From Candidatus Moraniibacteriota bacterium (GTDB taxonomy: Bacteria > Patescibacteriota > Minisyncoccia > Moranbacterales > UBA2206): DNA of 64,000 bases. The stretch covers positions 1,874 through 65,873 of the forward strand of contig JBAXKA010000001.1 in NCBI GenBank assembly GCA_037137555.1. Direction: 5' to 3'. Of the stretch, positions 27,753-58,634 are shown in pieces. Made by a program: the position numbers and the translations under genes. How positions within the stretch are numbered: position 1 is the first letter of the stretch; each line of letters begins with the position of its first letter. Below the pieces are notes generated by a model. That model ran no database searches and was not told the origin of the DNA. It saw only the letters and a list, made by a program, of their open reading frames with translations.

Positions 27753-28292
27753 ATGAAAAATTTAGTAGCAGTATTTTTTTGTTTGTTGGCAATGGTATTT
27801 GTTCCAGCTTTTGCTGGATCAAGTGAAAATCAAATGTGGGTCAGCACCCACAATTACTCCTACACCCAAATGGAAATGCCCTCAGGCATTTCCATGACAG
27901 CGGAAATGACCGCTACGGAATTTGTGATGACTATTCGTGGTGTGGATAGTCTCACGACTTACTTAAGGTTGAATTTGCCAACCGGAACTTCGTCAGTGGC
28001 ATCTCCCGGAGGTCCGCAAACGATCGCTAGGCGCTACGGTTATATCGACGCAGCAGGAAAGTTTAAAAAAAATTCCGCAGGAGATTGGGAAATCTCCGTG
28101 CCGAAAGTAGTGTTATGCCAAGACAAATCTATCAATGCTTTCTTTCCCGCATTGATGATGTATGATGAAAAAAATCCATCTCAGCAAACGGAGGTGGAAT
28201 TGTATCCCAACTCGGAATATTTTAAGTTGGGCAATGGCCTGAAGACTGGCATCGTAAATCATGGCATGGCCATGATGGTCGATTGCCAGTAA
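27753..28292 (+). CDS. secreted hypothetical protein
   Basis: Signal peptide MKNLVAVFFCLLAMVFVPAFA. RBS AAGGAG upstream. Followed by a strong terminator. Confidence 0.45.
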   Translation: MKNLVAVFFCLLAMVFVPAFAGSSENQMWVSTHNYSYTQMEMPSGISMTAEMTATEFVMTIRGVDSLTTYLRLNLPTGTSSVASPGGPQTIARRYGYIDAAGKFKKNSAGDWEISVPKVVLCQDKSINAFFPALMMYDEKNPSQQTEVELYPNSEYFKLGNGLKTGIVNHGMAMMVDCQ

Positions 28293-36580: not shown

Positions 36581-37891
36581 TTATTGCAGTAACCAACGCC
36601 AAACAGGCATAACAACGATCTCTCCACTTTCCATTCCAACTGAATCTTCCTCGCTTTCAGTTAGAATTAATGCTTTTTTCAGACCTAGCTCGCGCATAGC
36701 CGATACCGTGGCATTAATTTCTCGCTCGCGAGTTTCAAATTTTTCTAGCGATACGCAAACTTGAATTATGGCTTCTATTTTCTGTTTTTTTCTGATCAAA
36801 AAATCAACTTCGAGATTATTTTTTGTTTTATAATAATATACTTCTTCCTCTTTTTTTAATAAGTGCAAAAAAACCAAGTTTTCCAACAATTTTCCACGAT
36901 CTTCATTAAAGCTAAAACTTATAGCATTACGCAATCCCAAATCTGACGCATACACTTTGCGCGGATTAACAGCCTGCTCCTTCAAAGAATAGGCAAATTT
37001 TGGCAGGAAATAAAGCAGGAAAGGCGTTGTCAAATATTCGGAAAAACGCTCGACTGTTGAAAGGGGGATTTTTAAAAAATCCTTCACTTTATTGTAAGAC
37101 ATTAGAGCGGAGATGTTAGTCAAATAAAATTTTGTCAAAATCCTCAATTTCTCAGATTGCCTTATCTTAAACCGACTCAGCAAATCTCTGTTTATAATGT
37201 CCTCGAAATAATTGCGCAGAATCGTGTTTTTATCCTCTGCTGTTTTCAAAAAAACTGTTTTTGGCATACCGCCAAATTTCAAATATTCCCCAAATAGCTC
37301 CTTTATTTTTGCCTTTTGCCTTACAATACTAAGTTGATCAGAAATTTCGATTTTATTAAAAATCAAAAATTCCGCAAAAGTCAACGGATAGATTTTTAAA
37401 GTCAGTTGCCGTCCGGTCAAAACCGTGCTCAACTCAGAATTGAGTAAATGAGAATTGCTTCCGGATACAAAAATCGACGCCACTTTTCTTTCATGTAAAC
37501 TATTCACGAATTTTTCCCAGCCAGGCACATTTTGAATTTCATCCAACAGAATGAGCGGCTTTCCTCCCGGTTTCAAATTTTGCAAATATGTTTCATATAT
37601 CTCACCCAAAAGCTCAGGGGAATATTCGCCCAAGAATCTCGCATCCTCAAAATTGACATACAAAATATCTTGAGGCAAGAATTTTTTTTCTTCCAGCATT
37701 TTTTTGGCAAACTGCAACATCAAAGTTGATTTTCCGCTTCTTCTGATTCCAATAAGCGACACTACTAAGCCAATATTAAAATATCGCTCCATTTTATCAA
37801 CATATTCCTTTCTTTCTATGCCAGTTTCGATCTTTTTTTGCCAAAAATTCCAATCATTGAGAATTTCCAACAACTTTTCATTATTTATCAT
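36581..37891 (-). CDS. AAA ATPase (AAA_14/DUF4143-like), copy 3 of 3
   Basis: Walker A GIRRSGKST, Walker B LILLDEIQ. N-terminus resembles copy 1. Confidence 0.75.
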   Translation of the reverse strand: MINNEKLLEILNDWNFWQKKIETGIERKEYVDKMERYFNIGLVVSLIGIRRSGKSTLMLQFAKKMLEEKKFLPQDILYVNFEDARFLGEYSPELLGEIYETYLQNLKPGGKPLILLDEIQNVPGWEKFVNSLHERKVASIFVSGSNSHLLNSELSTVLTGRQLTLKIYPLTFAEFLIFNKIEISDQLSIVRQKAKIKELFGEYLKFGGMPKTVFLKTAEDKNTILRNYFEDIINRDLLSRFKIRQSEKLRILTKFYLTNISALMSYNKVKDFLKIPLSTVERFSEYLTTPFLLYFLPKFAYSLKEQAVNPRKVYASDLGLRNAISFSFNEDRGKLLENLVFLHLLKKEEEVYYYKTKNNLEVDFLIRKKQKIEAIIQVCVSLEKFETREREINATVSAMRELGLKKALILTESEEDSVGMESGEIVVMPVWRWLLQ

Positions 37892-48859: not shown

Positions 48860-51106
48860 ATGCTAAATTATATTTATCAAACAATCCTGCTTATTATTAT
48901 CCCTATGACCAAAAAGAAAATGGACAAAAAAATACCTCGATTGGAACCGCAATTTCATGATGTTTTGATTTGCAAAAAAAATAATTGTCGGCCATTTCTA
49001 GAAATATTAGTTGAAGAGCCAGAAAATATTTCTCATCAAAATCTGGGAATCCTTGTGGGTATTTTTCAAATCGATGATCATAGTGAAGATTCTTCCTATG
49101 TCGTGAACTATTTAATTTCTATCATAAAAAAGGAATATTTCTCGCATACTAATCGCGGACCAGTGGAAAATTTTGAATCAGCTTTGCACAAAGCCAATCT
49201 TGCTCTTGCCAAATTAGCCACCCATGAAAATATCAATTGGATTGGAAAAATTAATGCTCTTTGCGCTGTAATTGAAAAAAATAATCTTTTGCTTTCTCAG
49301 ACTGGCAATGCTTCAGCTTTTCTTTTGCGTGGTAATACTTTCACAGAAATTACTGAGTTACCCTCTGATGAAGAAAATTCCAATCCATTAAAAACATTTC
49401 AGGATGTTATTTCAGGAAAAATCGAAAAAAATGACAAACTTCTTTTTACCACCAAGGAACTTTTTGATATTTTCTCGCTAGAAGAAATTAAAAAAAGTGC
49501 TATTAAGTTCTCTCGCGAAAATTTTGTCCAATTCATAAACACGGCGCTTGTCAATGAACTCGACCAAGTTGCTACGCTAATTGTTGATATTGATGAAAAA
49601 AGCGAAGAAATAATCAGAAACACACCAGCACAAAAAACGAAAGAAATAAATGCTTTTAGCCAAAATGCTTTCAGGAAAGAACCTTCGCCGAAAACAAAGG
49701 CTCAAGAAAAAGTAAAAGAAGAATCTTTGAAAAAAGAACGCCAAGCCATGTTACAAGAATTGAAAAACGAAAAAAATGATTTTATTGATGAAAAAACTGG
49801 ACACATCTATATTAAAGAAGCAGAAACTGACTCATCGCAAGAAACTCCCACAGAAAAAATCGAATTTGATCCCTCCGCTTTCTTTGGCGAAAAATTTTCA
49901 ACGCTATCAATCTTAAGCATTAAGGCGCTTAAAAAAACAACAAATATTACACGAGATTTTTCACTTTCTCTTTGGCAAAAAAGTCGTTCAAGAATTACTA
50001 AAATAAAGCCTGGGACTAGTTGGATGAAAGATAAATCTATTGATGGACTCATTCTGCTCCTGCAAAAACCAACTGCTCTTTCACTTAAATTTATTATTTT
50101 CCTGAAAAAAAATTGGCGTGATTATAAGACAAGCAAATACTCAGAAATAAAACTAAAAAAAATTCTGCCTAATTTTTCTCGCCTAAAACAAATAATCAAA
50201 AATCTCAACCAAACACAAAAGCTTTCTGCCGTGGCAATATTAATTCTGCTTTTAATTGTGCCTTATTGGATTGCGAAGCTAGGAAATGTGCCCGAAAAAA
50301 AACCGGTCGTTGTCGAAGAGCTTCCGGCGATTGTTTTGCCACTCGAAAAAGATCTCAATGTTTCACGAATTGAAAAATTAAACGAAGTTTATCCAATAAC
50401 CGTTGCTAAAATTATTAATCTTAATAATAAATTTTTTGCCCTGAGTGATACGGAAATTATAGATTTAGAAAATAAAAAAAGTCTTTCAATTCCGAATGAT
50501 TTTCAAAATCCCGAATTATTCTTGGGCATGGATGACTTAAATTTAATCTTTCTAATCAAAAACAATCAAACAATTTCGCTCTCCCCCACAACTGGAAAAT
50601 TTCAAAACAATACGCTAGCACTTTCTTCTGGCGAAAAAATAATTGCTGCCAAAACTTATCTGACCTATATTTATTTACTTGATACAAATAACAGCCAACT
50701 CTATCGCGTGCCAAGAGCTGAAGGTGGTTTTGGCGAAAAAGCTTCCTGGCTTAAAGAAAAACTAGATTTATCCACTGCTACGGATTTCGTTATTAATGAA
50801 AATATTTTTATTATCAACAATCAAACTATTCTAAAATTATTTCGTGGAAAAAAACTTGATTTTTCTATCGAAAATACCGCCACAACAATTTTGCCAGATA
50901 AACTTTATGCCAAAAATACCAGCACTAATTTATATGTTCTTGATAAAGTCAACGCCAGAATAATAAAATTAGATGCTACTGGAAAAATTCTTGCTCAATA
51001 TTATAATCAAGCTATCACAACGACAACTGATTTTTCTGTGAATGAAGATGCTAATTTAGTTTATCTTTTGGATACAACTGGCGTAAAAAGTTTTGAAATG
51101 AATTAA
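48860..51106 (+). CDS. large membrane protein: N-terminal PP2C-like (apparently degenerate) domain, one TM, about 270-aa extracytoplasmic C-terminal domain
   Basis: GILVGIFQIDDH...ALCAVIEKNNLLLSQTGNASAFLLRG...NDKLLFTTKELFD follows the PP2C motif order, but the metal-binding Asp residues appear substituted. TM at LSAVAILILLLIVPYWIA. Confidence 0.45.
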   Translation: MLNYIYQTILLIIIPMTKKKMDKKIPRLEPQFHDVLICKKNNCRPFLEILVEEPENISHQNLGILVGIFQIDDHSEDSSYVVNYLISIIKKEYFSHTNRGPVENFESALHKANLALAKLATHENINWIGKINALCAVIEKNNLLLSQTGNASAFLLRGNTFTEITELPSDEENSNPLKTFQDVISGKIEKNDKLLFTTKELFDIFSLEEIKKSAIKFSRENFVQFINTALVNELDQVATLIVDIDEKSEEIIRNTPAQKTKEINAFSQNAFRKEPSPKTKAQEKVKEESLKKERQAMLQELKNEKNDFIDEKTGHIYIKEAETDSSQETPTEKIEFDPSAFFGEKFSTLSILSIKALKKTTNITRDFSLSLWQKSRSRITKIKPGTSWMKDKSIDGLILLLQKPTALSLKFIIFLKKNWRDYKTSKYSEIKLKKILPNFSRLKQIIKNLNQTQKLSAVAILILLLIVPYWIAKLGNVPEKKPVVVEELPAIVLPLEKDLNVSRIEKLNEVYPITVAKIINLNNKFFALSDTEIIDLENKKSLSIPNDFQNPELFLGMDDLNLIFLIKNNQTISLSPTTGKFQNNTLALSSGEKIIAAKTYLTYIYLLDTNNSQLYRVPRAEGGFGEKASWLKEKLDLSTATDFVINENIFIINNQTILKLFRGKKLDFSIENTATTILPDKLYAKNTSTNLYVLDKVNARIIKLDATGKILAQYYNQAITTTTDFSVNEDANLVYLLDTTGVKSFEMN

Positions 51107-51112
51107 TTACAT

Positions 51113-51964
51113 TTATATTAGATATTTTTTCAAAAGACCCTTAAAAATTTCTTGATAGTTATCAGCTAGTTTTTTCGTTGCTTCAGGACTGAGCGTTAGA
51201 TTTTTCAAATCAGCATAAATCCCTTGTGTTGCAACACCGCTCACTCGCTCAGAAAGTAAGTGCCAAAGATCAGCATAACCGCCAATTTCAATTCCCTGCT
51301 CTGTTTTTATAATTTCTTTTACTCGTGCCAGATTTGGCCAATAACCTTTTTCCAAAAACCAAATTAAATCATAAAAATCTCGTCCACGAAAATCATATTG
51401 ATTAAGAAAGATTTTTCCCTTTCTACCCAAAATTGCTCCAATTTTTCCCGCAAATAAAGTTGGGAAATCATAACTCTCCACCACAAAAAAAAGATTATTT
51501 TTCATAATAGCGGTTTTTTGAGTCGCAAAATGCTCATAATGATTATTTTCTACCTCTATTTTCAAATGCAAGAAATTTGTTTGTGCCTTATTGTCGCACA
51601 ATCCTAATTTTTCCAATATTGGAAATTTTAAAGTAATCACCTTTCCATTGGATTTAATTGATAGTTCAGCATCCGGAAAACCCATTTTTTGAAATCTTTC
51701 CAATAAATCAACAGAAAATGCCTGTGAATCAAACTCCCGTTCCAAATTATCCAAGTCCAAATCTTCCGAAAGTCTGGCGGTTTCGCCCAAAACCCGCAAT
51801 GCCGTTCCGCCAGTAAAAATCAGATTGCTCCATCTGGGTGAATTATAAATAAAATCCAGACAAGCCAAAATCATAAATTCCTTTAATTGAATTTTTATAA
51901 TCTCCCCTGACAGCCTGCCCACTTTGCCATCCCTTACAATTTCTTCTAATTTTTCTAAAATCAT
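51113..51964 (-). CDS. abiEii: AbiEii/AbiGii-family nucleotidyltransferase toxin (type IV TA, DUF1814)
   Basis: NLIFTGGTALRVLGETARLSEDLDLD matches the GGTAL...RxSxDxD signature. Confidence 0.7.
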   Translation of the reverse strand: MILEKLEEIVRDGKVGRLSGEIIKIQLKEFMILACLDFIYNSPRWSNLIFTGGTALRVLGETARLSEDLDLDNLEREFDSQAFSVDLLERFQKMGFPDAELSIKSNGKVITLKFPILEKLGLCDNKAQTNFLHLKIEVENNHYEHFATQKTAIMKNNLFFVVESYDFPTLFAGKIGAILGRKGKIFLNQYDFRGRDFYDLIWFLEKGYWPNLARVKEIIKTEQGIEIGGYADLWHLLSERVSGVATQGIYADLKNLTLSPEATKKLADNYQEIFKGLLKKYLI

Positions 51965-52590
51965 TTATGCTCAATTAATTTAATTAATTTATACACTATT
52001 TGCATTTTTTTTCCCGCAAGATTAAGATATTTTTCAAATTCCAACCAATCTTGCTTAGTAAAAACTTCAAAATTAATTCTTAAATCAAGAATATCATTCC
52101 CAGAAACAATCTTTTTTTTTCTTAATTTCAGACGCAAAAAATCAAATAGTGCCCTTGCCTTAGTTGCTTCATACCAAATCATATCTCCATACTTCTTTTT
52201 CTCAAAACCAGAAAATAACCCAGGATCAATTGAATAATAATTAAAACTACCGAATTGATTTTTGATTGTTGTTGTTTTTTTTGTAGTCATCAGTGAATAA
52301 CCAAAGACAACATCCGTGAGTGCTTGATATTCCTGCAATATAAATTCTGCACTCAAATAGCTCGGCTCAATCAATTTTGTTCCTAAAAATCTAGCATAAT
52401 AGAGAGAGTTATCACTCTTATCAATAAAATTTTTAAAAACATAAAAACCTCTTTTAACAGGCAAGAGTTCTTCTTTTTTTTGCCAATAACTAATATAATT
52501 TCGTAGCGTATTTAAATTAGGCTTATTTAAAGCCTTCCCGAGTGCAGTTTTAGAAATATAGGGCATTCGTTGTATATCCTTTTTTTCCAT
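51961..52590 (-). CDS. abiEi: AbiEi-like antitoxin/transcriptional regulator (by position and size)
   Basis: About 209 aa, immediately upstream of AbiEii with a 4-bp overlap. The N-terminus is predicted helical. Weak by sequence. Confidence 0.5.
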   Translation of the reverse strand: MEKKDIQRMPYISKTALGKALNKPNLNTLRNYISYWQKKEELLPVKRGFYVFKNFIDKSDNSLYYARFLGTKLIEPSYLSAEFILQEYQALTDVVFGYSLMTTKKTTTIKNQFGSFNYYSIDPGLFSGFEKKKYGDMIWYEATKARALFDFLRLKLRKKKIVSGNDILDLRINFEVFTKQDWLEFEKYLNLAGKKMQIVYKLIKLIEHK

Positions 52591-52814
52591 AGATACTTAT
52601 TTTTTTAGTATTTAGTGTCTTAATTATACACTATCAGCCCTATTGTGTCAATTATTTTTCCCTAGCCTTGACTTTTTCCCATTTTTATGCCAAGATATCC
52701 AGTCAATGCAATAATCGTTATTGTAACGACTTGGCTCTAAAATTCAAAGAGCTGAATGGTCGGCTCTTTGACAATTTTTATATAAATTAAAATTTAAAAA
52801 AGGGGGAACGGGCT

Positions 52815-53564
52815 ATGTTATCAGGAATTATCGCAGGATTGAAGAGTTTGTCTGGTTTCGGCGTAGAAGTTGCCGCCGATGCAGCAGTAATAAAAGGAAT
52901 CCCAGCCATATGGGGCTGGCTCAAGAAAAGTAGAGAAACGCTTTCTCCTGAGGCAAAGGAGAAATTAGACAAATTCCTTCTTAGTCCGATTAATTCGGAC
53001 GGAAGAACGAGGGAAGATGAAATGGTTTTTTCCGTTTCATTATTCACATTGCCAGGAGTGCCACAATGGATAAAAGAGCTTTTTATCAAGAAGCACGATG
53101 AGCTCTTGAATCCAGATTTATCAGGAAAGTCTCCTGATGAAATAAAAAAATTAAAAGAATGGGAGAGGAGGGCAAAGGGATTTATTTTCCTTATTGCCAC
53201 CGATCCCACGGTCAAGGAGATTGACGAAAGCAAGCGATTTGTTTTCGCCAAAAAAATATGGTATGGAATTTTTTCAGAAGTTGAAAAACTTCCAAGCGAT
53301 GACGCTCGACTCGAAAAGTTTGAGCGGGACATTTTGCTCTGGGGAAAGAATTACCAGGAAAAAATGTCCAAAGAAGAATTGCTAGAAAAAACTAGCGCCT
53401 TTTTTAAGGAAGCTGATTCCGTAATAGCAAGCGGAATCGACCTTATCTCGGGAAAAATAAATTCCCAATGGGACGAGATTGAAACGCAAAGAGTTGCACG
53501 TAAAAATCTCCCATGGAAGGGAAATGCAACCGAAAAAATATGGGGCTGGCTAATGGATTGCTAG
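52815..53564 (+). CDS. hypothetical soluble protein (first gene of a GC-richer two-gene module)
   Basis: Strong RBS AAGGGGGAA. No recognisable motif. Local GC is clearly above the window background. Confidence 0.45.
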   Translation: MLSGIIAGLKSLSGFGVEVAADAAVIKGIPAIWGWLKKSRETLSPEAKEKLDKFLLSPINSDGRTREDEMVFSVSLFTLPGVPQWIKELFIKKHDELLNPDLSGKSPDEIKKLKEWERRAKGFIFLIATDPTVKEIDESKRFVFAKKIWYGIFSEVEKLPSDDARLEKFERDILLWGKNYQEKMSKEELLEKTSAFFKEADSVIASGIDLISGKINSQWDEIETQRVARKNLPWKGNATEKIWGWLMDC

Positions 53565-53585
53565 TACCCACAATAGGAGGAAAAA

Positions 53586-54791
53586 ATGAACACGATGGGT
53601 TCATTGAGAGCGTTTTTCGCAGCTTTTCCCCGCATGGTACAAGGAGAATTGCGTGGTCTGAGGAATCTGCTTCTGCGGTTAGCAGGAGCACTTTGTTTTC
53701 TTTTTCTTTTCCAGCTGACGATGGACAGTTATATTTTTTCGTCTGTCGTAGGAATTGTTTTGTGGATATTTAGTTTTTTATGGATAGTAAATATCCGCAG
53801 GATAACAAATATGGCAATCGTCGGAGAGGCTTTTGAAGCTCTTCATATAACACCAATAACACCCGCCGAAAGATCAGCTGAAGGGGCTGCCGCAATAGTG
53901 GTCAATCCCCTCAATGATCTTTTCTGGCGGGTTTCGCTGCAACTGTTTTTTTTCATGACAGTTGCAGCGTTAGTTGTTCCGCTGTTACCATTGCGGAACA
54001 ACCCCGCGCTAGTTTTTCTTTTCCCCTTGATGCTAGTCGCTTCGGCGATTGCATTTAGGGGAGCCGTGCTCATCACGGCGAATATATTGTCCGGAATTTT
54101 CATTGCTGGACTAATCATGTTTCATTGCGGGATGTTATTTCTCCCGCAAATTCTATTAATTTTCCCATCATTCGCAACAGAGTATGTTGCGAAGTTCAGA
54201 ACGGGAAATCTCGCTGGCAGAAATGCTAGCGAGCTTGGTGAAATCGTCACAATTCGTGAGCGACAACGCCAAGAAATGGTCGCCGAGGCTATGGGAAAAG
54301 CTCGGCGATGGCAAGAACAAAATCGGGGGAAGCCTCTCCCTGTGGAAATTGAGCGAGACATAGAGGCAGCGAAGCAAGGCCTGAGTCTGGCTGAATTACA
54401 AGCCAGACTCAAGGCCGAAGCCGACGCCAAAGCGAAAGCCGAGGCGGAGGCAAAAGCCAAGGCCGAAAAAGCCGAAGCAGAAGCAAAGGCGAAAGCCCAA
54501 GCTGAAGCCAAGGCTTTGGAACTCCGCCGACAAGCTGAAAAGCTTGAGGCAGAAAAAAACAAAATAAAAACCATCAGCAATGGGTATGTTTTACGCCCTG
54601 CCGATGGTGGCGTCGTCTGCTTGACGATGCAGGCGGGCGACTGGAATGTTTTTCCAGCTAATACAAGAATGAAGGAAGCGGGTGATAAGATTCCAAGGGA
54701 AACCGGAGGGGAAATGTTCGTTTCTAGAGAAACGACCTCATGCTTTTTCCCCTCCCCTGGCACGAGGGAAATCGTGCTAACGAAAAAATAA
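53586..54791 (+). CDS. hypothetical membrane protein with a long Ala/Lys/Glu coiled-coil and a C-terminal globular region
   Basis: RBS AGGAGG. About six TM helices (residues about 25-200), then KAEADAKAKAEAEAKAKAEKAEAEAKAKAQAEAKALELRRQAEKLEAEKNK, then a 70-aa C-terminal region. Confidence 0.5.
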   Translation: MNTMGSLRAFFAAFPRMVQGELRGLRNLLLRLAGALCFLFLFQLTMDSYIFSSVVGIVLWIFSFLWIVNIRRITNMAIVGEAFEALHITPITPAERSAEGAAAIVVNPLNDLFWRVSLQLFFFMTVAALVVPLLPLRNNPALVFLFPLMLVASAIAFRGAVLITANILSGIFIAGLIMFHCGMLFLPQILLIFPSFATEYVAKFRTGNLAGRNASELGEIVTIRERQRQEMVAEAMGKARRWQEQNRGKPLPVEIERDIEAAKQGLSLAELQARLKAEADAKAKAEAEAKAKAEKAEAEAKAKAQAEAKALELRRQAEKLEAEKNKIKTISNGYVLRPADGGVVCLTMQAGDWNVFPANTRMKEAGDKIPRETGGEMFVSRETTSCFFPSPGTREIVLTKK

Positions 54792-54820
54792 ATAACTTTC
54801 AACGAAAGGAGGTGAAAAAA

Positions 54821-54850
54821 GGGCAGACTCAAAATTGAGCTGCCCTTTAA
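54821..54850 (+). terminator. rho-independent terminator (convergent genes on both sides)
   Basis: GGGCAGACTCAAAATTGAGCTGCCC followed by TTTAAAATT. Confidence 0.7.
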
Positions 54851-54880
54851 AATTGTCTATTTTTAAAACTTCTATAAATT

Positions 54881-55576
54881 TCATCTTAATAAGAAATCCA
54901 CTGTTTTAATTGCAATAAATCCAGATAACGCCACAACCAAACCAATAATCGAAGCCACCATTGTTTTCTTGGCTTTTTCAACCATCTTCTCATCCGTTGC
55001 TACTAGAAAATATTGAAATCCGGAAATTATAAATCCAATAATTGCAATAATCCCAACGATACTCAAAAGCCAATCAACAACATTAGTGAGAATACCTTTT
55101 ACTAAATCTGGATTGGCTGGTAATCCTACATCTGGAATATCTAAGTCACCTCCAGATGTTCCACTTTTTGTAGCTGAACAACTAACAGAATCACATGTTC
55201 CAGTGAGTGCACAACTCCAAGTCCATGGACCAGTCCCAGTAACAGAAGTGTTTGTTCCCGTAGAACAAAGATTAGTAGTAGGTTTACTTGTAAATGGACC
55301 AGAAGAACCGCATACACAGAGAGTTGCAGATCCACTTTTTGTAGCCGAACAATTAACGGAATCGCATACCCCAACAGCATCACAACTCCACTGCCACGGA
55401 CCAGCTCCTGTAACAGAAGTGTTATTTCCCGTAGTGCAAAGACCAGTGGTAGGCTTACTTGCGAATGGACCAGAAGAACCGCAAGTACAAGGTGCTGCCA
55501 AAACCTGCTCTGTCATCAAAAACCCACCCCCGAAAACTATCACCATCATCAAAAACAATTTCATTTTATTTTGCAT
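54881..55576 (-). CDS. secreted protein with two tandem about 55-aa Cys-containing repeats and a C-terminal VirB2/TrbC-like (T4SS-pilin-like) hydrophobic module
   Basis: Internal repeat C(T/V)CGSSGPF(A/T)SKPTT(G/N)LC(T/S)TG(N/T)NTSVTG(A/T)GPW(Q/T)WSC...CDSV(N/S)CSATKSG occurs twice. C-terminus VVDWLLSIVGIIAIIGFIISGFQYFLVATDEKMVEKAKKTMVASIIGLVVAL. Confidence 0.5.
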   Translation of the reverse strand: MQNKMKLFLMMVIVFGGGFLMTEQVLAAPCTCGSSGPFASKPTTGLCTTGNNTSVTGAGPWQWSCDAVGVCDSVNCSATKSGSATLCVCGSSGPFTSKPTTNLCSTGTNTSVTGTGPWTWSCALTGTCDSVSCSATKSGTSGGDLDIPDVGLPANPDLVKGILTNVVDWLLSIVGIIAIIGFIISGFQYFLVATDEKMVEKAKKTMVASIIGLVVALSGFIAIKTVDFLLR

Positions 55577-56414
55577 ATTTTTTTATTTTAAAATTTTTAA
55601 CATGTAACATTTTTGCGTTTTTACTTGTGAGCACTTTTTTACCAGTTTCACTTTCAATATCTTTGCGTGCATTCCCCGCTATTCCTCCACCAACGCGTGC
55701 CACGATTTCATTTTCAGCTAAATTTTTCGGCTCGCGTTTTTTGGAAATTTCCATCGTTGCAGTTTCTGCCAGCATATTCAAAACCAATTCCATATTGGTC
55801 ATATTATCTCGCAAATTTTCTTTTTTGAGATTTTTTAAATTTTTATACTCCTTGGTTGTGAGTCCTGTCCACGCCTGAGTAATTTCATTCGTCAAAATAG
55901 CAAATTCCAAACCTTCTTTCACTCCGCGTTTTTCCCACTCATCAGTCAAAGTTTTTCTGATTTCAATACTTTTTAATCTTTGATTAACCCAGTTTTGACT
56001 GTAGCCTTTTTGTAAATAAGTTTTCAACGCACGATCAATCGCTAATTCCGGATCGGCTGTTTCTTCCAGTCTTTCATAGCCCACCCGTGCAAGCCAAAGC
56101 TTGAATGGCTCAGCGTTTGGTGAAGGAATTGATTGGATGAGCCGAAGCATAACTTCAGTGTCCACAGTATCAGTCAAATATAACTTGCCATCGCTAGCCA
56201 ACATTTTCAGTTGGTTACATTTTGTAACCAACTCACTTCCCTCAGTTTTTAAGCGGCTCTTAAACACTTTCCAGTAATTTCTAGGGTCAGTACTTTTAGT
56301 CAGCACTCCTATGACATCAACCACTGAAAAATACCACAACTCTTTTTCCGCATCCCAATGACGACGAATTTGACTGCCTTCGAAAATTGCAACTGTTTTA
56401 ATTTTTTTTTGCAT
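55566..56414 (-). CDS. DinD-like (DNA-damage-inducible protein D) / Bro-N domain protein
   Basis: N-terminus FEGSQIRRHWDAEKELWYFSVVDVIGVLT (Bro-N-like), with middle and C-terminal regions aligning by eye to E. coli DinD (recalled from memory). Confidence 0.55.
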   Translation of the reverse strand: MQKKIKTVAIFEGSQIRRHWDAEKELWYFSVVDVIGVLTKSTDPRNYWKVFKSRLKTEGSELVTKCNQLKMLASDGKLYLTDTVDTEVMLRLIQSIPSPNAEPFKLWLARVGYERLEETADPELAIDRALKTYLQKGYSQNWVNQRLKSIEIRKTLTDEWEKRGVKEGLEFAILTNEITQAWTGLTTKEYKNLKNLKKENLRDNMTNMELVLNMLAETATMEISKKREPKNLAENEIVARVGGGIAGNARKDIESETGKKVLTSKNAKMLHVKNFKIKKYAK

Positions 56415-56567
56415 ATTTTCTTATTTTAAATTTTTAATAATTATTTTTATATTTTTAGTATAGCATAAATAAAAAAAATTAACCAAGCAAAAAAGTATTA
56501 CTTTTTATATACCATAGTATATTAAATAACCTATTTTTTTCAATATTTCAAAAATAATTCCCACAAA

Positions 56568-56948
56568 CTAGATACCTCCCTGTCCAGTCAATAAGGCGTC
56601 CGCCGCATAAATTATCACTAATCCGGAAATTGCCACAACAACACCGAGGATAGAATTAACCATGGCTTTTTTGGCTAGCTTGATCTGTTCCTCCTGTCCA
56701 GCTGATGTGAGATACATTATGCCAGCAATTGCAAAACCAATCACACCAACAATTCCCACGATTCTTAATAACCAATTCAATACACCAGTAAGAATATCGC
56801 TGATAGTTGCACTTGATAGGCCAGTGTTGGTCATAGCACCAGGATCCCATCCTGTTGCCATCGCTATTTCCCCGAAAACAAATAAACCGATTACACTCAA
56901 TCCCACAACTGAAAAAACTTTTTTTATGCTTGTTTTTTTTCTTTGCAT
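56568..56948 (-). CDS. VirB2/TrbC-like (T4SS-pilin-like) small membrane protein, paralogue A
   Basis: Signal/TM, then ISDILTGVLNWLLRIVGIVGVIGFAIAGIMYLTSAGQEEQIKLAKKAMVNSILGVVVAISGLVII. Confidence 0.55.
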   Translation of the reverse strand: MQRKKTSIKKVFSVVGLSVIGLFVFGEIAMATGWDPGAMTNTGLSSATISDILTGVLNWLLRIVGIVGVIGFAIAGIMYLTSAGQEEQIKLAKKAMVNSILGVVVAISGLVIIYAADALLTGQGGI

Positions 56949-57059
56949 TGTATTTATTTTAAATTATTAATTACACTAAAATTATAGCACAAATCTAAAA
57001 ATAAAAACAATCCCAATAAATTGGAACTGTTTTTATTTAAACTAACAAAAATATTTTTA

Positions 57060-57431
57060 CTAGAATGTTCCCGTTCCTTTGAGCATTGCGTTTGCTGCGC
57101 TAAGTGCCACAACACCAACTAATGCCACAATTACTCCAATAATAGAATTAACCATTGCGCGCTTAGCAGCCTTGATTCTGTCTTCGTCTCCCGCTGCTGT
57201 AAGATAGAGAATTCCAGAAATCGCAAAACCAATCACACCAGCAATTCCCACTGCGGTCAAAAGCCACTTCATGATACCAGTTACAATTTCCATCAATGAT
57301 CCTCCTGGAAGATTCGTTCCTCCGCCTGCTGTTGGATCGAAAGCTCCCGTAACGGCACCAAAAACCACAGCTGGCAAAGTCAATGCCAAGAGTGAAGCTC
57401 CGTATGTCAATCCTTTAATTTTATTTTTCAT
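57060..57431 (-). CDS. VirB2/TrbC-like (T4SS-pilin-like) small membrane protein, paralogue B
   Basis: LMEIVTGIMKWLLTAVGIAGVIGFAISGILYLTAAGDEDRIKAAKRAMVNSIIGVIVALVGVVAL, about 60% identical to paralogue A. Confidence 0.55.
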   Translation of the reverse strand: MKNKIKGLTYGASLLALTLPAVVFGAVTGAFDPTAGGGTNLPGGSLMEIVTGIMKWLLTAVGIAGVIGFAISGILYLTAAGDEDRIKAAKRAMVNSIIGVIVALVGVVALSAANAMLKGTGTF

Positions 57432-57470
57432 GAAAACACCTCCTTCTATTTTTATTTTTTATTTTCAAAT

Positions 57471-58634
57471 TTAGCCAGTAATCAAAATTTTTATTTGCTC
57501 GACTGCCACAAGCGAACCGAGGGCAACAATAATTCCAATGATCGCATATGTTCCCATTTTCTTAGCTGTCTTTATTCGCTCATCATCACCATAAGCTGTC
57601 ATATACATACTGCCAGCAATCACTAAACTAATTATAGCAATGATTCCCACAATCGACAAGAGCATTGACAAAACTCTTGTCGCAATATCTTTAATCGTTG
57701 GTGCTCCCTGGAGTTCACTCCCAGGCAAATTGCCTCCCAAAATTTCTTGCACTTGTGCCAAAAATGTTGGTGCCGCAATTACAATCGCCAAACCAATCAC
57801 CGCACCAGTCCAACAATCTTTCGCTCGCTTCAACATTGTAGGATCCCCCGCTGACATCATATACAAAATTCCACCCAACACAATAAAAATAATCGCCAGC
57901 GTAACCACAAAACCTTTCAAAGCAGTCAAAAGCCCAGTCAAAACCCCCTCAATACTATTAAAGTTAAGTGGATTAACAAAAGAAGCAGAGGTGCTACTAG
58001 TGCCCGAATTAGATCCTGTACAATAAGTAGTACATGCGCCCTCCTTTATTGAACCCTTTGCGCATGTTCCATCTGTTTTTGGACTATCGCAAGTTGCAGT
58101 ACTGCCACTACCATCCACACAACATTTGGAGCTTGTGCAATAAGAAGAGCAATCATTATCTTTCTTTTTGCCAACAGCACATTTTCCATCAGCATCAGGA
58201 ACTCCTGGACATTCATTGGGAGTTTTACTTTCATCAACACAACATCCTCCTTTTGTACCACCGCATTTACTAATTTGATTACAAGGTTTTTCTGTTGGTT
58301 TTCCTGATGAGCAACTCCCCCCAGGAAAAACATCCGTACATTTATCCTCACAACACCATTTTTCAGCTGTGGCACACTCCTTGTCAATTGGACTACCATA
58401 GCCAGAACATACAGAAAGATTTCCATCGCAACAACCTTCTTGCGTACCCCTTGTGTATTCAGTGCATTTTTGACAAACCCCCGCAGCTACACAATCACCA
58501 GCAGTTTCAGCTGAATGACATTGATTATTGAAATAACAACAGTCTGGATATGCATTAACAATACCTCCCCCAAAAACTCCCATCAACATAATCACAAAAA
58601 CTGCCAGACTAAAAAAATATTTTTTCTTTTGCAT
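57471..58634 (-). CDS. Cys-rich surface protein fused to two tandem VirB2/TrbC-like pilin modules
   Basis: Signal/TM, then about 180 aa with more than 30 Cys (CCxxNxC, CxxC patterns), then two copies of the W/LLxxxGxxAIIxxVxxGxxYMxxxGDxxxxKxAK module. Confidence 0.5.
   Translation of the reverse strand: MQKKKYFFSLAVFVIMLMGVFGGGIVNAYPDCCYFNNQCHSAETAGDCVAAGVCQKCTEYTRGTQEGCCDGNLSVCSGYGSPIDKECATAEKWCCEDKCTDVFPGGSCSSGKPTEKPCNQISKCGGTKGGCCVDESKTPNECPGVPDADGKCAVGKKKDNDCSSYCTSSKCCVDGSGSTATCDSPKTDGTCAKGSIKEGACTTYCTGSNSGTSSTSASFVNPLNFNSIEGVLTGLLTALKGFVVTLAIIFIVLGGILYMMSAGDPTMLKRAKDCWTGAVIGLAIVIAAPTFLAQVQEILGGNLPGSELQGAPTIKDIATRVLSMLLSIVGIIAIISLVIAGSMYMTAYGDDERIKTAKKMGTYAIIGIIVALGSLVAVEQIKILITG

What the first reader, a model, noticed from the sequence alone, without database searches (positions are those of the whole stretch)
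52600..54860. Compositionally foreign two-gene module of unknown function between the AbiE pair and the T4SS-pilin cluster
GC content jumps for about 2.1 kb, to roughly 45% by eye against a ~30% background. This generates long spurious antisense ORFs. Both genes have unusually strong RBSs (AAGGGGGAA, AGGAGG) and the module ends with a strong terminator. Gene 1 (249 aa) is soluble with no known motif. Gene 2 (401 aa) has a multi-TM N-terminal region, a long Ala/Lys/Glu heptad coiled-coil (KAEADAKAKAEAEAKAKAEKAEAEAKAKAQAEAKA...) and a small C-terminal globular region. It is wedged between a type IV TA (AbiEi/AbiEii) and a conjugation-like pilin cluster. That is the kind of context in which uncharacterised defense or exclusion systems are found. 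A membrane coiled-coil effector with a cytoplasmic sensor is a recurring abortive-infection architecture.
Basis: partly seen in the sequence, partly recalled or inferred. Interest (0 to 1): 0.7.

Follow-up and report, generated by a model that had tools for sequence, protein, structure and literature searches.

The report
Shuffled membrane gene pair beside pilins
This GC-rich two-gene unit is not freshly imported defence DNA; it is a resident operon of unknown function in Moranbacteria that always sits beside an array of VirB2-like pilin genes, and whole sections of it are swapped between strains by recombination.

Summary
g1 (52815-53564, 249 aa) and g2 (53586-54791, 401 aa) have 45.2% GC against a 34.5% background (z = 5.3). 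Their GC3 is 0.40-0.46 against 0.28. The strong RBSs, the bidirectional terminator and the described architecture are all present.

The "foreign defence module" reading is not supported.
- Both proteins belong to small orphan families, with no match in Pfam, NCBIfam, PADLOC, PHROGs, PDB or viral collections.
- These families were found only in Moranbacteria.
- In every locus long enough to judge, the order is g1, g2, then a convergent T4SS_pilin array and a solute-binding protein. Only the upstream side varies; toxin-antitoxin and ATPase genes insert there.
- GC enrichment recurs in six of seven other lineages and across deeply divergent alleles, so it belongs to the locus.

The locus is mosaic. 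In a genome 96% identical in its flanks, g1 plus the membrane half of g2 is replaced by an allele with no nucleotide similarity. A 138-nt coiled-coil segment and a 115-nt leader stay near-identical even where everything else differs.

My best guess is a membrane complex that carries a stalk and a variable head and is functionally tied to the pilin array. Function remains inferred.

The parts
52667..52789 (+). Conserved leader and promoter region of the operon, and the upstream recombination anchor. A putative promoter, TTGACT-17 nt-TGnCAAGAT, lies at about 52669-52703.
   Evidence: It is 90% identical in L007, whose flanks are 84.6% identical, and is also retained in L001 and L003. It aligns to TTGACT-17-TGCTAATAT in L015 and TTGACT-17-TGATAATAT in L009. 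The promoter assignment is inferred.
52744..52771 (+). Leader stem-loop (12 bp) followed by a U-rich tract. It may be an attenuator or a 5' stabiliser.
   Evidence: Free energy -17.1 kcal/mol, z -5.7. L015 has the same hairpin with compensatory changes, GAGC/GCTC to GAAC/GTTC. L009 has a different hairpin at the same place.
52800..52808 (+). Ribosome-binding site of g1 (AAGGGGGAA)
   Evidence: Read from the sequence
52815..53564 (+). g1: a 249-aa all-alpha protein with an amphipathic or hydrophobic N-terminal segment and a C-terminal Pro-Trp-basic tail. It belongs to an orphan family.
53575..53580 (+). Ribosome-binding site of g2 (AGGAGG, 5-nt spacer)
   Evidence: Read from the sequence
53586..54176 (+). 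g2 residues 1-197: polytopic membrane domain with 5-6 hydrophobic helices. G80, E81 and P187 are nearly invariant across the family.
   Evidence: Hydropathy scan, alignments A6 and A9, and 70 family clusters among 1.84 billion representatives
54177..54395 (+). g2 residues 198-270: conserved basic juxtamembrane helix with K203, R224, Q227, R228, W242, Q243, N246, G248, P252, G265 and E270
   Evidence: Invariant columns in alignment A6
54396..54569 (+). g2 residues 271-328: helical stalk rich in Ala, Lys and Glu, resembling TolA domain II in composition
   Evidence: AlphaFold helix with pLDDT 75-87. 24-nt tandem repeats. TIGR02794 scores 29.7 bits against a cut-off of 59.45.
54422..54559 (+). 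Stalk-coding DNA that serves as the internal recombination anchor
   Evidence: It is 94.2% identical to L007, whose flanks are 84.6% identical (P = 5e-4). 39 of 45 codons are identical despite mixed synonymous Ala, Lys and Glu codons. The allele breakpoint with L003 is at 54375.
54570..54791 (+). g2 residues 329-401: small variable beta-rich head with a G-x-[YW]-x-[VIL] motif and 2 Cys
   Evidence: AlphaFold predicts five short strands at low confidence. Family tails were surveyed and aligned. dS against L001 is 1.29.
54818..54848 (.). Bidirectional intrinsic terminator shared by g2 and the convergent pilin gene
54881..58634 (-). VirB2-like (PF18895) pilin array: pil1 54881-55576, pil2 56568-56948, pil3 57060-57431, pil4 57471-58634. 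This is the invariant neighbour of the pair. It is interrupted by a Bro-N/PDC-S13 gene at 55566-56414.
51113..52590 (-). AbiEii and AbiEi toxin-antitoxin pair. It is a variable insertion upstream of the operon and not part of it.
   Evidence: It is replaced by an AAA_14/DUF4143 gene in L001 and L007, and absent from main-clade loci.

Best explanation
g1 and g2 form a resident operon specific to Moranbacteria. It encodes a membrane complex built from two orphan protein families.

Shown:
- The pair has its own conserved promoter and leader, and a terminator shared with the convergent pilin gene.
- It is always immediately next to, and convergent with, a VirB2-like pilin array followed by a solute-binding protein and a methyltransferase.
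- It is under purifying selection.
- It is a mosaic, polymorphic locus. Block A (g1 plus the membrane and juxtamembrane part of g2) and block B (the C-terminal head of g2) are exchanged independently between strains by homologous recombination. The anchors are the leader, the stalk-coding DNA and the terminator.
- The elevated GC, including GC3, accompanies the pair across lineages and alleles.

Inferred:
- g1 is a peripheral membrane partner that docks on g2's membrane or juxtamembrane domain. The two are always replaced together.
- g2 holds a rigid spacer (an Ala/Lys/Glu helix, or a Pro-rich rod in relatives) that presents a small variable beta head, most likely outside the cytoplasmic membrane.
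- The complex works with the pilin array as a platform, anchor or recognition module. This is a VirB5/VirB6-like role by position and architecture, not by homology.
- Allelic diversity is maintained by host-cell, partner-cell or phage pressure.
- The GC3 excess is a by-product of the high recombination rate (GC-biased conversion) or of exchange within a somewhat GC-richer gene pool.
For: Conserved unit and synteny:
- g1 followed by g2 occurs in every locus that reaches that far.
- The pilin array follows in 18 of the 25 loci plus the window. The other loci mostly end before or just after g2.
- These loci represent about 11 distinct lineages at 15-100% identity.
- The upstream neighbour changes: NusA, PDT, a type IV pilus cluster with a 748-aa protein, AbiE, AAA_14, or HEPN/MNT.

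Restricted orphan families:
- g1 has 29 clusters among 5.8 billion; the g2 N-terminal domain has 70 clusters among 1.84 billion representatives.
- Only 4 loci were found in 185,579 species genomes. Two record titles name Moranbacteria, one says 'uncultured bacterium' and one says Bdellovibrionales.

Mosaicism:
- Against L003, flanks are 96% identical, there is no similarity over 52789-54374, and identity is 90% from 54375 onward.
- Against L007, only the leader, the stalk segment and the terminator are retained.
- Against L001, dS is 3.3 for g1 and 0.43 for g2, compared with 0.03-0.23 for flanking genes. dN/dS is 0.10-0.19.
- The L003 g1 allele is closer to the main clade than to the window allele.

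Composition: GC3 is 0.39-0.46 in the pair against 0.24-0.38 (mostly 0.25-0.32) in neighbouring genes in L001, L003, L007, L009, L010 and L012.

Spacer logic: relatives have Pro-rich rods (PAPTPAPAPKPQPKP, TPTPPPPPPP) where the window has the Ala/Lys/Glu helix. The head carries exactly 2 Cys in 9 of 16 tails surveyed.

Literature: VirB2-like pilin arrays are widespread, variable and (in one cultured strain) essential in Patescibacteria, while VirB6 homologues are scarce in some classes (PMC12102498).
Against: - Function rests on gene order and architecture only.
- The pair is transcribed convergently to the pilins, not with them.
- All the genomes belong to one order, so adjacency could partly reflect inherited gene order.
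- No VirB4 gene lies within 10 kb.
- Membrane topology is unresolved. The basic juxtamembrane helix argues for a cytoplasmic C-terminus by the positive-inside rule. The g2 model is poor in the membrane domain (pLDDT below 50).
- Pilin alleles do not strictly co-vary with g1/g2 alleles.
- One lineage (L013) lacks the GC3 excess.
Confidence: 0.45

Rival explanations
1. This is the first reader's view: a two-gene anti-phage or abortive-infection system. g1 is a cytoplasmic sensor and g2 is a membrane effector.
For: - Toxin-antitoxin and defence-type genes cluster directly upstream: AbiE, AAA_14/DUF4143 and HEPN/MNT.
- A PDC-S13 candidate defence gene lies in the adjacent array.
- Deep allelic diversity and cassette exchange are typical of arms-race genes.
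- The architecture, a membrane protein plus a soluble partner, fits.
Against: - No PADLOC or PHROG hit.
- The pair has a fixed chromosomal position in every lineage, while the recognised defence genes come and go around it.
- It was never seen outside Moranbacteria or on viral contigs.
- No enzymatic or pore-forming motif is conserved; the invariant residues of g1 are Gly, Ala and Pro.
- dN/dS is 0.1-0.2, so the diversity is old imported variation, not rapid positive selection.
Confidence: 0.15
2. The pair is a housekeeping envelope protein pair with no functional connection to the pilins. Adjacency is inherited gene order. Hypervariability arises because the exposed parts serve as a phage receptor or antigen.
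For: - The pair is convergent with the pilins and is a separate transcription unit.
- All loci come from one order.
- Pilin alleles do not co-vary with alleles of the pair.
- Purifying selection acts on the pair.
Against: - The upstream junction has been rearranged several times and genes have inserted within the pilin array, yet the g2-pilin junction is never broken.
- The variable block includes the membrane domain and the non-secreted g1. These are not obvious receptor surfaces.
Confidence: 0.2
3. The pair is an allele-specific exclusion or kin-recognition determinant of the pilin/T4SS-like apparatus, analogous to TraG/TraS or TraG/Eex entry exclusion. Matching alleles of g1 and g2 would define compatibility groups.
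For: - g1 and the g2 membrane domain are replaced together as a block, while the rest is kept.
- Discrete, deeply divergent alleles coexist among genomes about 96% identical.
- The pair is adjacent to VirB2-like pilins.
- The precedent is from my own knowledge: exclusion specificity in F-like and SXT/R391 systems maps to co-varying segments of a polytopic VirB6-like protein and a small inner-membrane partner.
Against: - No homology to TraG, TraS or Eex.
- No relaxase or VirB4 gene nearby.
- There is no evidence that these organisms conjugate.
Confidence: 0.12
4. The pair is a recently acquired foreign island that entered this genome by horizontal transfer from a GC-richer donor.
For: GC z = 5.3 and a GC3 excess.
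Against: - The same slot is occupied in all relatives.
- GC3 is elevated in six other lineages and in alleles with no nucleotide similarity.
- No flanking repeats, integrase or tRNA gene.
- No homologue outside the order.
Confidence: 0.04

Closest known systems
VirB5/VirB6 (TrwJ/TrwI) module of type IV secretion systems, including the amplified variable trw copies of Bartonella
   Same: - Gene order: an all-alpha protein of about 220 aa followed by a polytopic membrane protein with at least 5 helices.
- Position next to VirB2-type pilin genes.
- Strain-variable components.
- 'Extended' VirB6 proteins carry large C-terminal extensions.
   Different: - No sequence or fold similarity was detected.
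- The window's g1 has no clear signal peptide.
- The pair is transcribed convergently to the pilins.
- No VirB4, VirB3 or VirB8 gene is nearby.
- The stalk-plus-head C-terminus is not a canonical VirB6 feature.
TolA and TonB (envelope-spanning rod proteins)
   Same: A membrane anchor is followed by a rigid spacer and then a small globular C-terminal domain. The spacer is an Ala/Lys/Glu helix as in TolA domain II, or a Pro-rich rod as in TonB in relatives. TIGR02794 gives a weak compositional hit.
   Different: - The score is below the cut-off (29.7 against 59.45 bits).
- g2 has 5-6 membrane helices, not one.
- There is no TolQR or ExbBD partner.
- These organisms are thought to lack an outer membrane (my own knowledge).
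Specificity loci such as agr (agrB-D-C) and com (comC-comD) in Gram-positive bacteria
   Same: A small upstream gene and the N-terminal polytopic domain of the downstream membrane protein are replaced together as discrete alleles. The C-terminal part stays conserved, and recombination breakpoints lie inside the membrane protein gene.
   Different: - There is no histidine-kinase domain or peptide precursor.
- g1 is a folded protein of 210-250 aa.
- The resemblance lies in population-genetic pattern only.
Mosaic surface proteins with conserved repeat linkers (for example pneumococcal PspA/PspC and streptococcal M proteins)
   Same: An Ala/Lys/Glu-rich helical region flanks variable domains. Alleles are mosaic and generated by recombination.
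   Different: These proteins are anchored to the wall or to choline, are not polytopic, have no co-varying partner gene and are unrelated in sequence.
AbiE (AbiEi/AbiEii) type IV toxin-antitoxin system
   Same: Immediate neighbour at 51113-52590.
   Different: It is a separate, divergently transcribed unit and is absent from most loci that carry the pair.

Membership tests
Known or candidate anti-phage defence systems (PADLOC-DB 2.0) | Protein matches a defence-system HMM | tested here: not met
   g1 and g2 match no family at E <= 0.1, while the neighbouring AbiEi, AbiEii and PDC-S13 genes score 1e-29 to 1e-131 in the same search.
Known or candidate anti-phage defence systems (PADLOC-DB 2.0) | Patchy, accessory distribution in variable islands or on mobile elements | tested here: not met
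   The pair holds the same slot next to the pilin array in all lineages; only the upstream genes vary. It is absent from IMG/VR.
Known or candidate anti-phage defence systems (PADLOC-DB 2.0) | Confers protection against phage or plasmid | not testable with these tools
   This needs a challenge assay.
Recently acquired genomic island | Deviant base composition | tested here: met
   GC 45.2% against 34.5% (z = 5.3); GC3 z = 2.6 and 3.7.
Recently acquired genomic island | Absent from close relatives at the same site; mobility genes or flanking repeats present | tested here: not met
   The pair is present at the same site in L001, L003 and more distant relatives. No bounding repeats and no adjacent tRNA gene.
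TolA (TIGR02794) | Score above the curated cut-off; single N-terminal membrane helix; TolQR partners | tested here: not met
   29.7 bits against a cut-off of 59.45, and the match covers only the low-complexity helix at residues 228-326. g2 has 5-6 hydrophobic helices.
VirB6/TrbL (PF04610) | Sequence match to the family profile | tested here: not met
   No hit in any of 61 family members at E <= 5.
VirB6/TrbL (PF04610) | Polytopic inner-membrane protein with at least 5 helices, encoded beside VirB2-type pilin genes | tested here: met
   Hydropathy and AlphaFold helices; adjacency in all loci.
VirB6/TrbL (PF04610) | Fold similarity to solved VirB6 (R388 TrwI) | not testable with these tools
   The g2 model has pLDDT below 50 across the membrane domain, so a fold search would be meaningless.
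VirB6/TrbL (PF04610) | Co-location with virB4 and other T4SS core genes | tested here: not met
   None appears within +/-10 kb in the precomputed Pfam lists or among the window ORFs I scanned.
VirB5/TraC minor pilin | Sequence or fold match to VirB5 | tested here: not met
VirB5/TraC minor pilin | Sec signal peptide | tested here: inconclusive
   The main clade has a basic N-terminus followed by a short hydrophobic stretch (VLxGSAxAVGL). In the window clade this segment carries Glu and Asp. No signal-peptide predictor was available.
ECF sigma / anti-sigma pair | Sigma70 region 2 and region 4 domains in the upstream protein | tested here: not met
   Only one weak NCBIfam hit (E 0.047, 13.9 bits against a cut-off of 211). 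No Sigma70 domain in 29 members.

The most novel reading that the evidence does not exclude
The pair is the specificity module of the Patescibacterial VirB2-like pilus. It would be a non-homologous functional counterpart of VirB5/VirB6, or of TraG/TraS-type exclusion pairs. g1 and the g2 membrane domain form allele-matched complexes, and the stalk presents an exchangeable head. Strains would shuffle these blocks through conserved DNA anchors to change which host or partner cells they recognise or exclude.
Probability: 0.2. Interest if true: 0.8.

Novelty: new variant of a known kind. Interest (0 to 1): 0.5.

Why it matters
Patescibacteria (CPR) live attached to host cells. Their VirB2-like pilin arrays are widespread and variable, and in the one strain tested they are essential. 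How the pilins are assembled and how host specificity is set is unknown, and VirB6-type components often cannot be found.

A two-gene unit of unknown function that is locked to such an array and exchanged in blocks between near-identical strains is a concrete candidate for a specificity or assembly determinant.

It is also a clean natural example of two things:
- A short repeat-coding linker serving as a recombination junction for domain shuffling.
- A locus whose GC3 stays high across alleles in an AT-rich genome, which bears on GC-biased gene conversion in bacteria.

There is a practical point as well. Deviant GC next to toxin-antitoxin genes need not mean foreign defence cargo.

Tried and rejected
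- **Family libraries.** Pfam, PHROGs, PADLOC and NCBIfam gave nothing for g1 or g2 except a sub-threshold TolA low-complexity hit. Scanning all family members (61, 29 and 11 sequences) at E <= 5 gave no recurrent family. A single NfeD_membrane hit (1 of 61) and a few DUF4131 and Wzy_C hits look like generic multi-helix noise.
- **Solved structures by sequence.** Nothing significant for the g2 N-terminal domain, the head domain or g1. The g1 main-clade profile scored 5.8e-7 against tandem protein A constructs, but no single stretch passed, so I treat it as spurious.
- **Viral origin.** No g1 relative in IMG/VR. The g2 alignment was too variable for that scan.
- **RNA element.** Rfam found only two tRNAs far away.
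- **Island boundaries.** No meaningful flanking repeats.
- **ECF sigma/anti-sigma, Zorya-like and NfeD/SPFH-like readings.** I considered these and dropped them for lack of any profile support.
- **L007 pair as homologue.** hhalign found nothing for its g1 (E 0.63) or its g2 N-terminal domain (E 0.13). That slot holds an undetectably related or unrelated pair.
Full report
**1. The observation**

The region contains two co-directional ORFs: g1 (52815-53564, 249 aa) and g2 (53586-54791, 401 aa).
- The module has 45.2% GC. Windows of equal length elsewhere average 34.5% (sd 2.0%, maximum 40.7%), which gives z = 5.3. The true background is about 34-35%, not 30%.
- The excess is present at third codon positions. 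GC3 is 0.40 and 0.46 against 0.281 +/- 0.048 for 60 other ORFs.
- The two long antisense ORFs exist.
- The Shine-Dalgarno sequences are AAGGGGGAA and AGGAGG.
- The terminator hairpin at 54818-54848 folds at about -19.5 kcal/mol on either strand.
- g1 has no segment that passes a transmembrane hydropathy threshold. g2 has 5-6 hydrophobic helices, a long helix and a small beta-rich C-terminus.
- The upstream genes are AbiEi and AbiEii. The downstream genes are four PF18895/TrbC-type pilins.

The description is therefore accurate.

**2. Source and homologues**

The exact g1 protein is annotated as a hypothetical protein of a Candidatus Moraniibacteriota MAG. Neither protein matches Pfam, PHROGs, PADLOC or NCBIfam. 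The one exception is a sub-threshold TolA hit caused by the Ala/Lys/Glu helix.

Close homologues are very rare: 3 clusters for g1 and 5 real ones for g2 among 5.8 billion.
- A profile of divergent g1 sequences recovers 29 clusters of 208-264 aa. The one cluster that carries an organism name is annotated as Moranbacteria.
- A profile of the g2 membrane domain finds 70 clusters among 1.84 billion representatives.
- hhalign links the window's g1 clade to the main clade at E 1e-4, and the L003 allele to the main clade at 2.7e-6.
- Scans of 185,579 species genomes and of JGI metagenomes found 4 and 8 loci. The viral collection gave none.

**3. Genomic context across relatives**

I tabulated g1, g2 N-terminal domain, pilin and solute-binding-protein hits in all 25 fetched loci plus the window.
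- Whenever the contig reaches far enough, the order is g1, g2, then the convergent pilin array (3-6 genes), the SBP_bac_1 protein and a methyltransferase.
- This covers about 11 distinct lineages.
- The upstream side differs between lineages. It is NusA in several main-clade loci and a PDT gene in others. In the window's lineage it is a type IV pilus cluster plus a 733-748-aa protein.
- Between that backbone and the operon's leader, toxin-antitoxin or ATPase genes come and go. AbiE is in the window, L003 and the ERZ1426830 contig. AAA_14/DUF4143 is in L001, L007 and the ERZ contig. MNT/HEPN is in the ERZ contig.

The pair is therefore the resident gene set, and the recognised defence-type genes are the cargo. 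The one invariant association is with the VirB2-like pilin array.

**4. Composition is a property of the locus**

The pair is GC3-enriched relative to its neighbours in L001, L003, L007, L009, L010 and L012: 0.39-0.46 against 0.24-0.38 (mostly 0.25-0.32). This includes alleles that share no nucleotide similarity with the window. L013 is an exception.

No bounding repeats, tRNA gene or integrase are present. A single recent transfer does not explain this pattern. A persistent process is needed, and the evidence for intense recombination in section 5 makes GC-biased conversion a natural candidate. That is an inference and was not tested.

**5. The locus is a mosaic of exchangeable blocks**

*Window against L003 (GCA_964482625.1).* The flanks are 96% identical and the AbiE pair is shared. 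Window 52789-54374, which is g1 plus the first 263 residues of g2, has no detectable nucleotide similarity. The proteins there are 23% and about 28% identical. From 54375 onward identity returns to 90%.

*Window against L001.* The flanks are 96% identical but the pair is only 80% identical. dS is 3.3 for g1 and 0.43 for g2, against 0.03-0.23 for flanking genes, and dN/dS is 0.10-0.19. These are old, selectively maintained alleles brought in by recombination, not fast in-situ evolution. Within g2, dS varies by segment: 0.76 for residues 1-75, 0.30 for 76-262, 0.09 for the stalk and 1.29 for the head.

*Window against L007 (flanks 84.6%).* Only three pieces survive:
- the leader (90%);
- 138 nt of stalk-coding DNA, which is 94.2% identical (P = 5e-4), with 39 of 45 codons identical despite mixed synonymous codons;
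- the terminator with the 3' end of the pilin gene (89%).

The L007 proteins in between have no detectable homology to g1 or to the g2 membrane domain. They do have the same architecture.

The leader, the stalk DNA and the terminator therefore act as recombination anchors. They delimit block A (g1 plus the g2 membrane and juxtamembrane domain) and block B (the head).

**6. What the proteins look like**

- Across the family only Gly, Ala, Pro and Trp positions are invariant.
- The His-rich motif of the main clade is not kept in the window clade, which argues against an enzyme.
- The N-terminus is amphipathic to hydrophobic, and the C-terminus ends in a Pro-Trp-(Trp)-Lys-Lys type tail. Both suggest association with the membrane surface. 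This is inferred.

*g2* has a conserved membrane domain in which G80, E81 and P187 are nearly invariant. It is followed by a conserved basic juxtamembrane helix (R224, Q227, R228, W242, Q243, N246, G248, P252, G265, E270). After that the family diverges:
- The spacer is an Ala/Lys/Glu helix, a Pro-rich rod, or both.
- The head is a small beta-rich domain with a recurrent G-x-[YW]-x-[VIL] motif. It has exactly two Cys in 9 of 16 cases.
- The head has no significant Pfam or PDB match.

Spacer types that recall TolA and TonB, together with the paired cysteines, lean towards an extracytoplasmic head. The basic juxtamembrane segment leans the other way. Topology is unresolved.

**7. Regulation**

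The leader carries a plausible promoter, TTGACT-17-TGn-CAAGAT. It aligns with better promoters in L015 and L009. It also carries a 12-bp hairpin (-17.1 kcal/mol, z -5.7) followed by a U-rich tract. L015 keeps this hairpin through compensatory changes, and L009 has a different hairpin at the same place. Rfam has no match there.

**8. Interpretation**

*Shown:*
- The pair is a conserved two-gene operon specific to this order.
- It is locked to the pilin array.
- It is under purifying selection.
- It is highly polymorphic through block exchange.
- It is persistently GC-rich.

*Inferred:*
- g1 contacts the g2 membrane or juxtamembrane domain, because the two are replaced together.
- g2 presents a variable head on a rigid spacer.
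- The complex serves the VirB2-like pilin system as a platform, anchor or recognition element.

This echoes VirB5/VirB6 in gene order and architecture. It is not a member of those families: sequence and fold tests were negative, no VirB4 gene is nearby, and the pair is transcribed convergently to the pilins. The literature notes that VirB2-like arrays are common, variable and essential in one cultured strain, and that VirB6 homologues are hard to find in some classes (PMC12102498). That leaves room for non-homologous substitutes.

The defence reading keeps some probability because of the neighbourhood and the diversity. It fails the distribution test and has no profile support. The recent foreign-island reading is essentially excluded.

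**9. Verdict**

The finding is real. It is more interesting as a polymorphic, pilin-linked orphan operon than as a defence candidate. Function remains inferential, so the overall interest is moderate at 0.5. It would rise if the specificity-module reading were confirmed.

Noticed in passing
window 55566-56414 (-): A 282-aa Bro-N/DinD-like gene sits inside the pilin array. It matches the PADLOC candidate defence family PDC-S13 (8e-131) and phrog_15286 (7e-126). It is flanked by 39-nt direct repeats that are 90% identical (55559-55597 and 56397-56435). It is 99.3% identical to the L001 copy (dS 0.006), far closer than the surrounding genes, which suggests a recent insertion or spread.
   Followed up: partly
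window 36581-37891 (-); L001 8409-9629 and 13617-14789; L003 12819-13991; L007 7715-9088: AAA_14/DUF4143 ATPase genes recur at variable positions. In relatives they occupy the AbiE slot, and a second slot inside the pilin array that is empty in the window. They behave like mobile or hot-spot cargo.
   Followed up: partly
window 54881-55576 (pil1) and 57471-58634 (pil4): The Cys-rich ectodomains of the two large pilins are themselves hypervariable between genomes 96% identical. dS is 0.49 and 0.33, dN/dS is about 0.4, and there is no nucleotide similarity over about 58004-58135. pil1 contains an internal 171-nt tandem duplication (55160-55327 and 55331-55498).
   Followed up: partly
L007 9150-11221: The slot holds a gene pair with no detectable homology to g1 or to the g2 membrane domain (hhalign E 0.63 and 0.13). 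It has the same architecture and shares the leader, the 138-nt stalk DNA and the terminator. This looks like replacement by an unrelated or unrecognisably diverged cassette.
   Followed up: partly
window 52744-52771 (+): A conserved leader hairpin is followed by a U-rich tract upstream of g1. L015 shows compensatory base changes. It may be an attenuator. There is no Rfam match.
   Followed up: partly
window 27753-28292 (+): This 179-aa ORF has the highest GC3 in the window (0.472; GC 43.7%) and no Pfam match. It is a second compositional outlier.
   Followed up: no
window 52623-52651 (-): A perfect consensus sigma-70 promoter (TTGACA-17-TATAAT) faces the abiEi-abiEii pair.
   Followed up: no
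window 48860-51106 (+): A conserved 748-aa protein (733-743 aa in relatives) has no Pfam family. It has only a faint PP2C-like N-terminal hit (E 0.009), and a hydrophobic stretch is visible by eye in its translation (not computed). It lies between the type IV pilus cluster and the variable region.
   Followed up: no
L017 (CAZVVG010000010.1): This contig is titled 'uncultured Bdellovibrionales bacterium', but it carries the typical Moranbacteria arrangement: NusA, g1, g2, pilin array, SBP. The bin is probably mislabelled or contaminated.
   Followed up: no
g1 main clade (alignment A5), profile positions 49-85: The profile scores 5.8e-7 against engineered tandem protein A constructs in the PDB, but no single stretch is significant. 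It is probably a summed weak resemblance to a three-helix-bundle motif.
   Followed up: no
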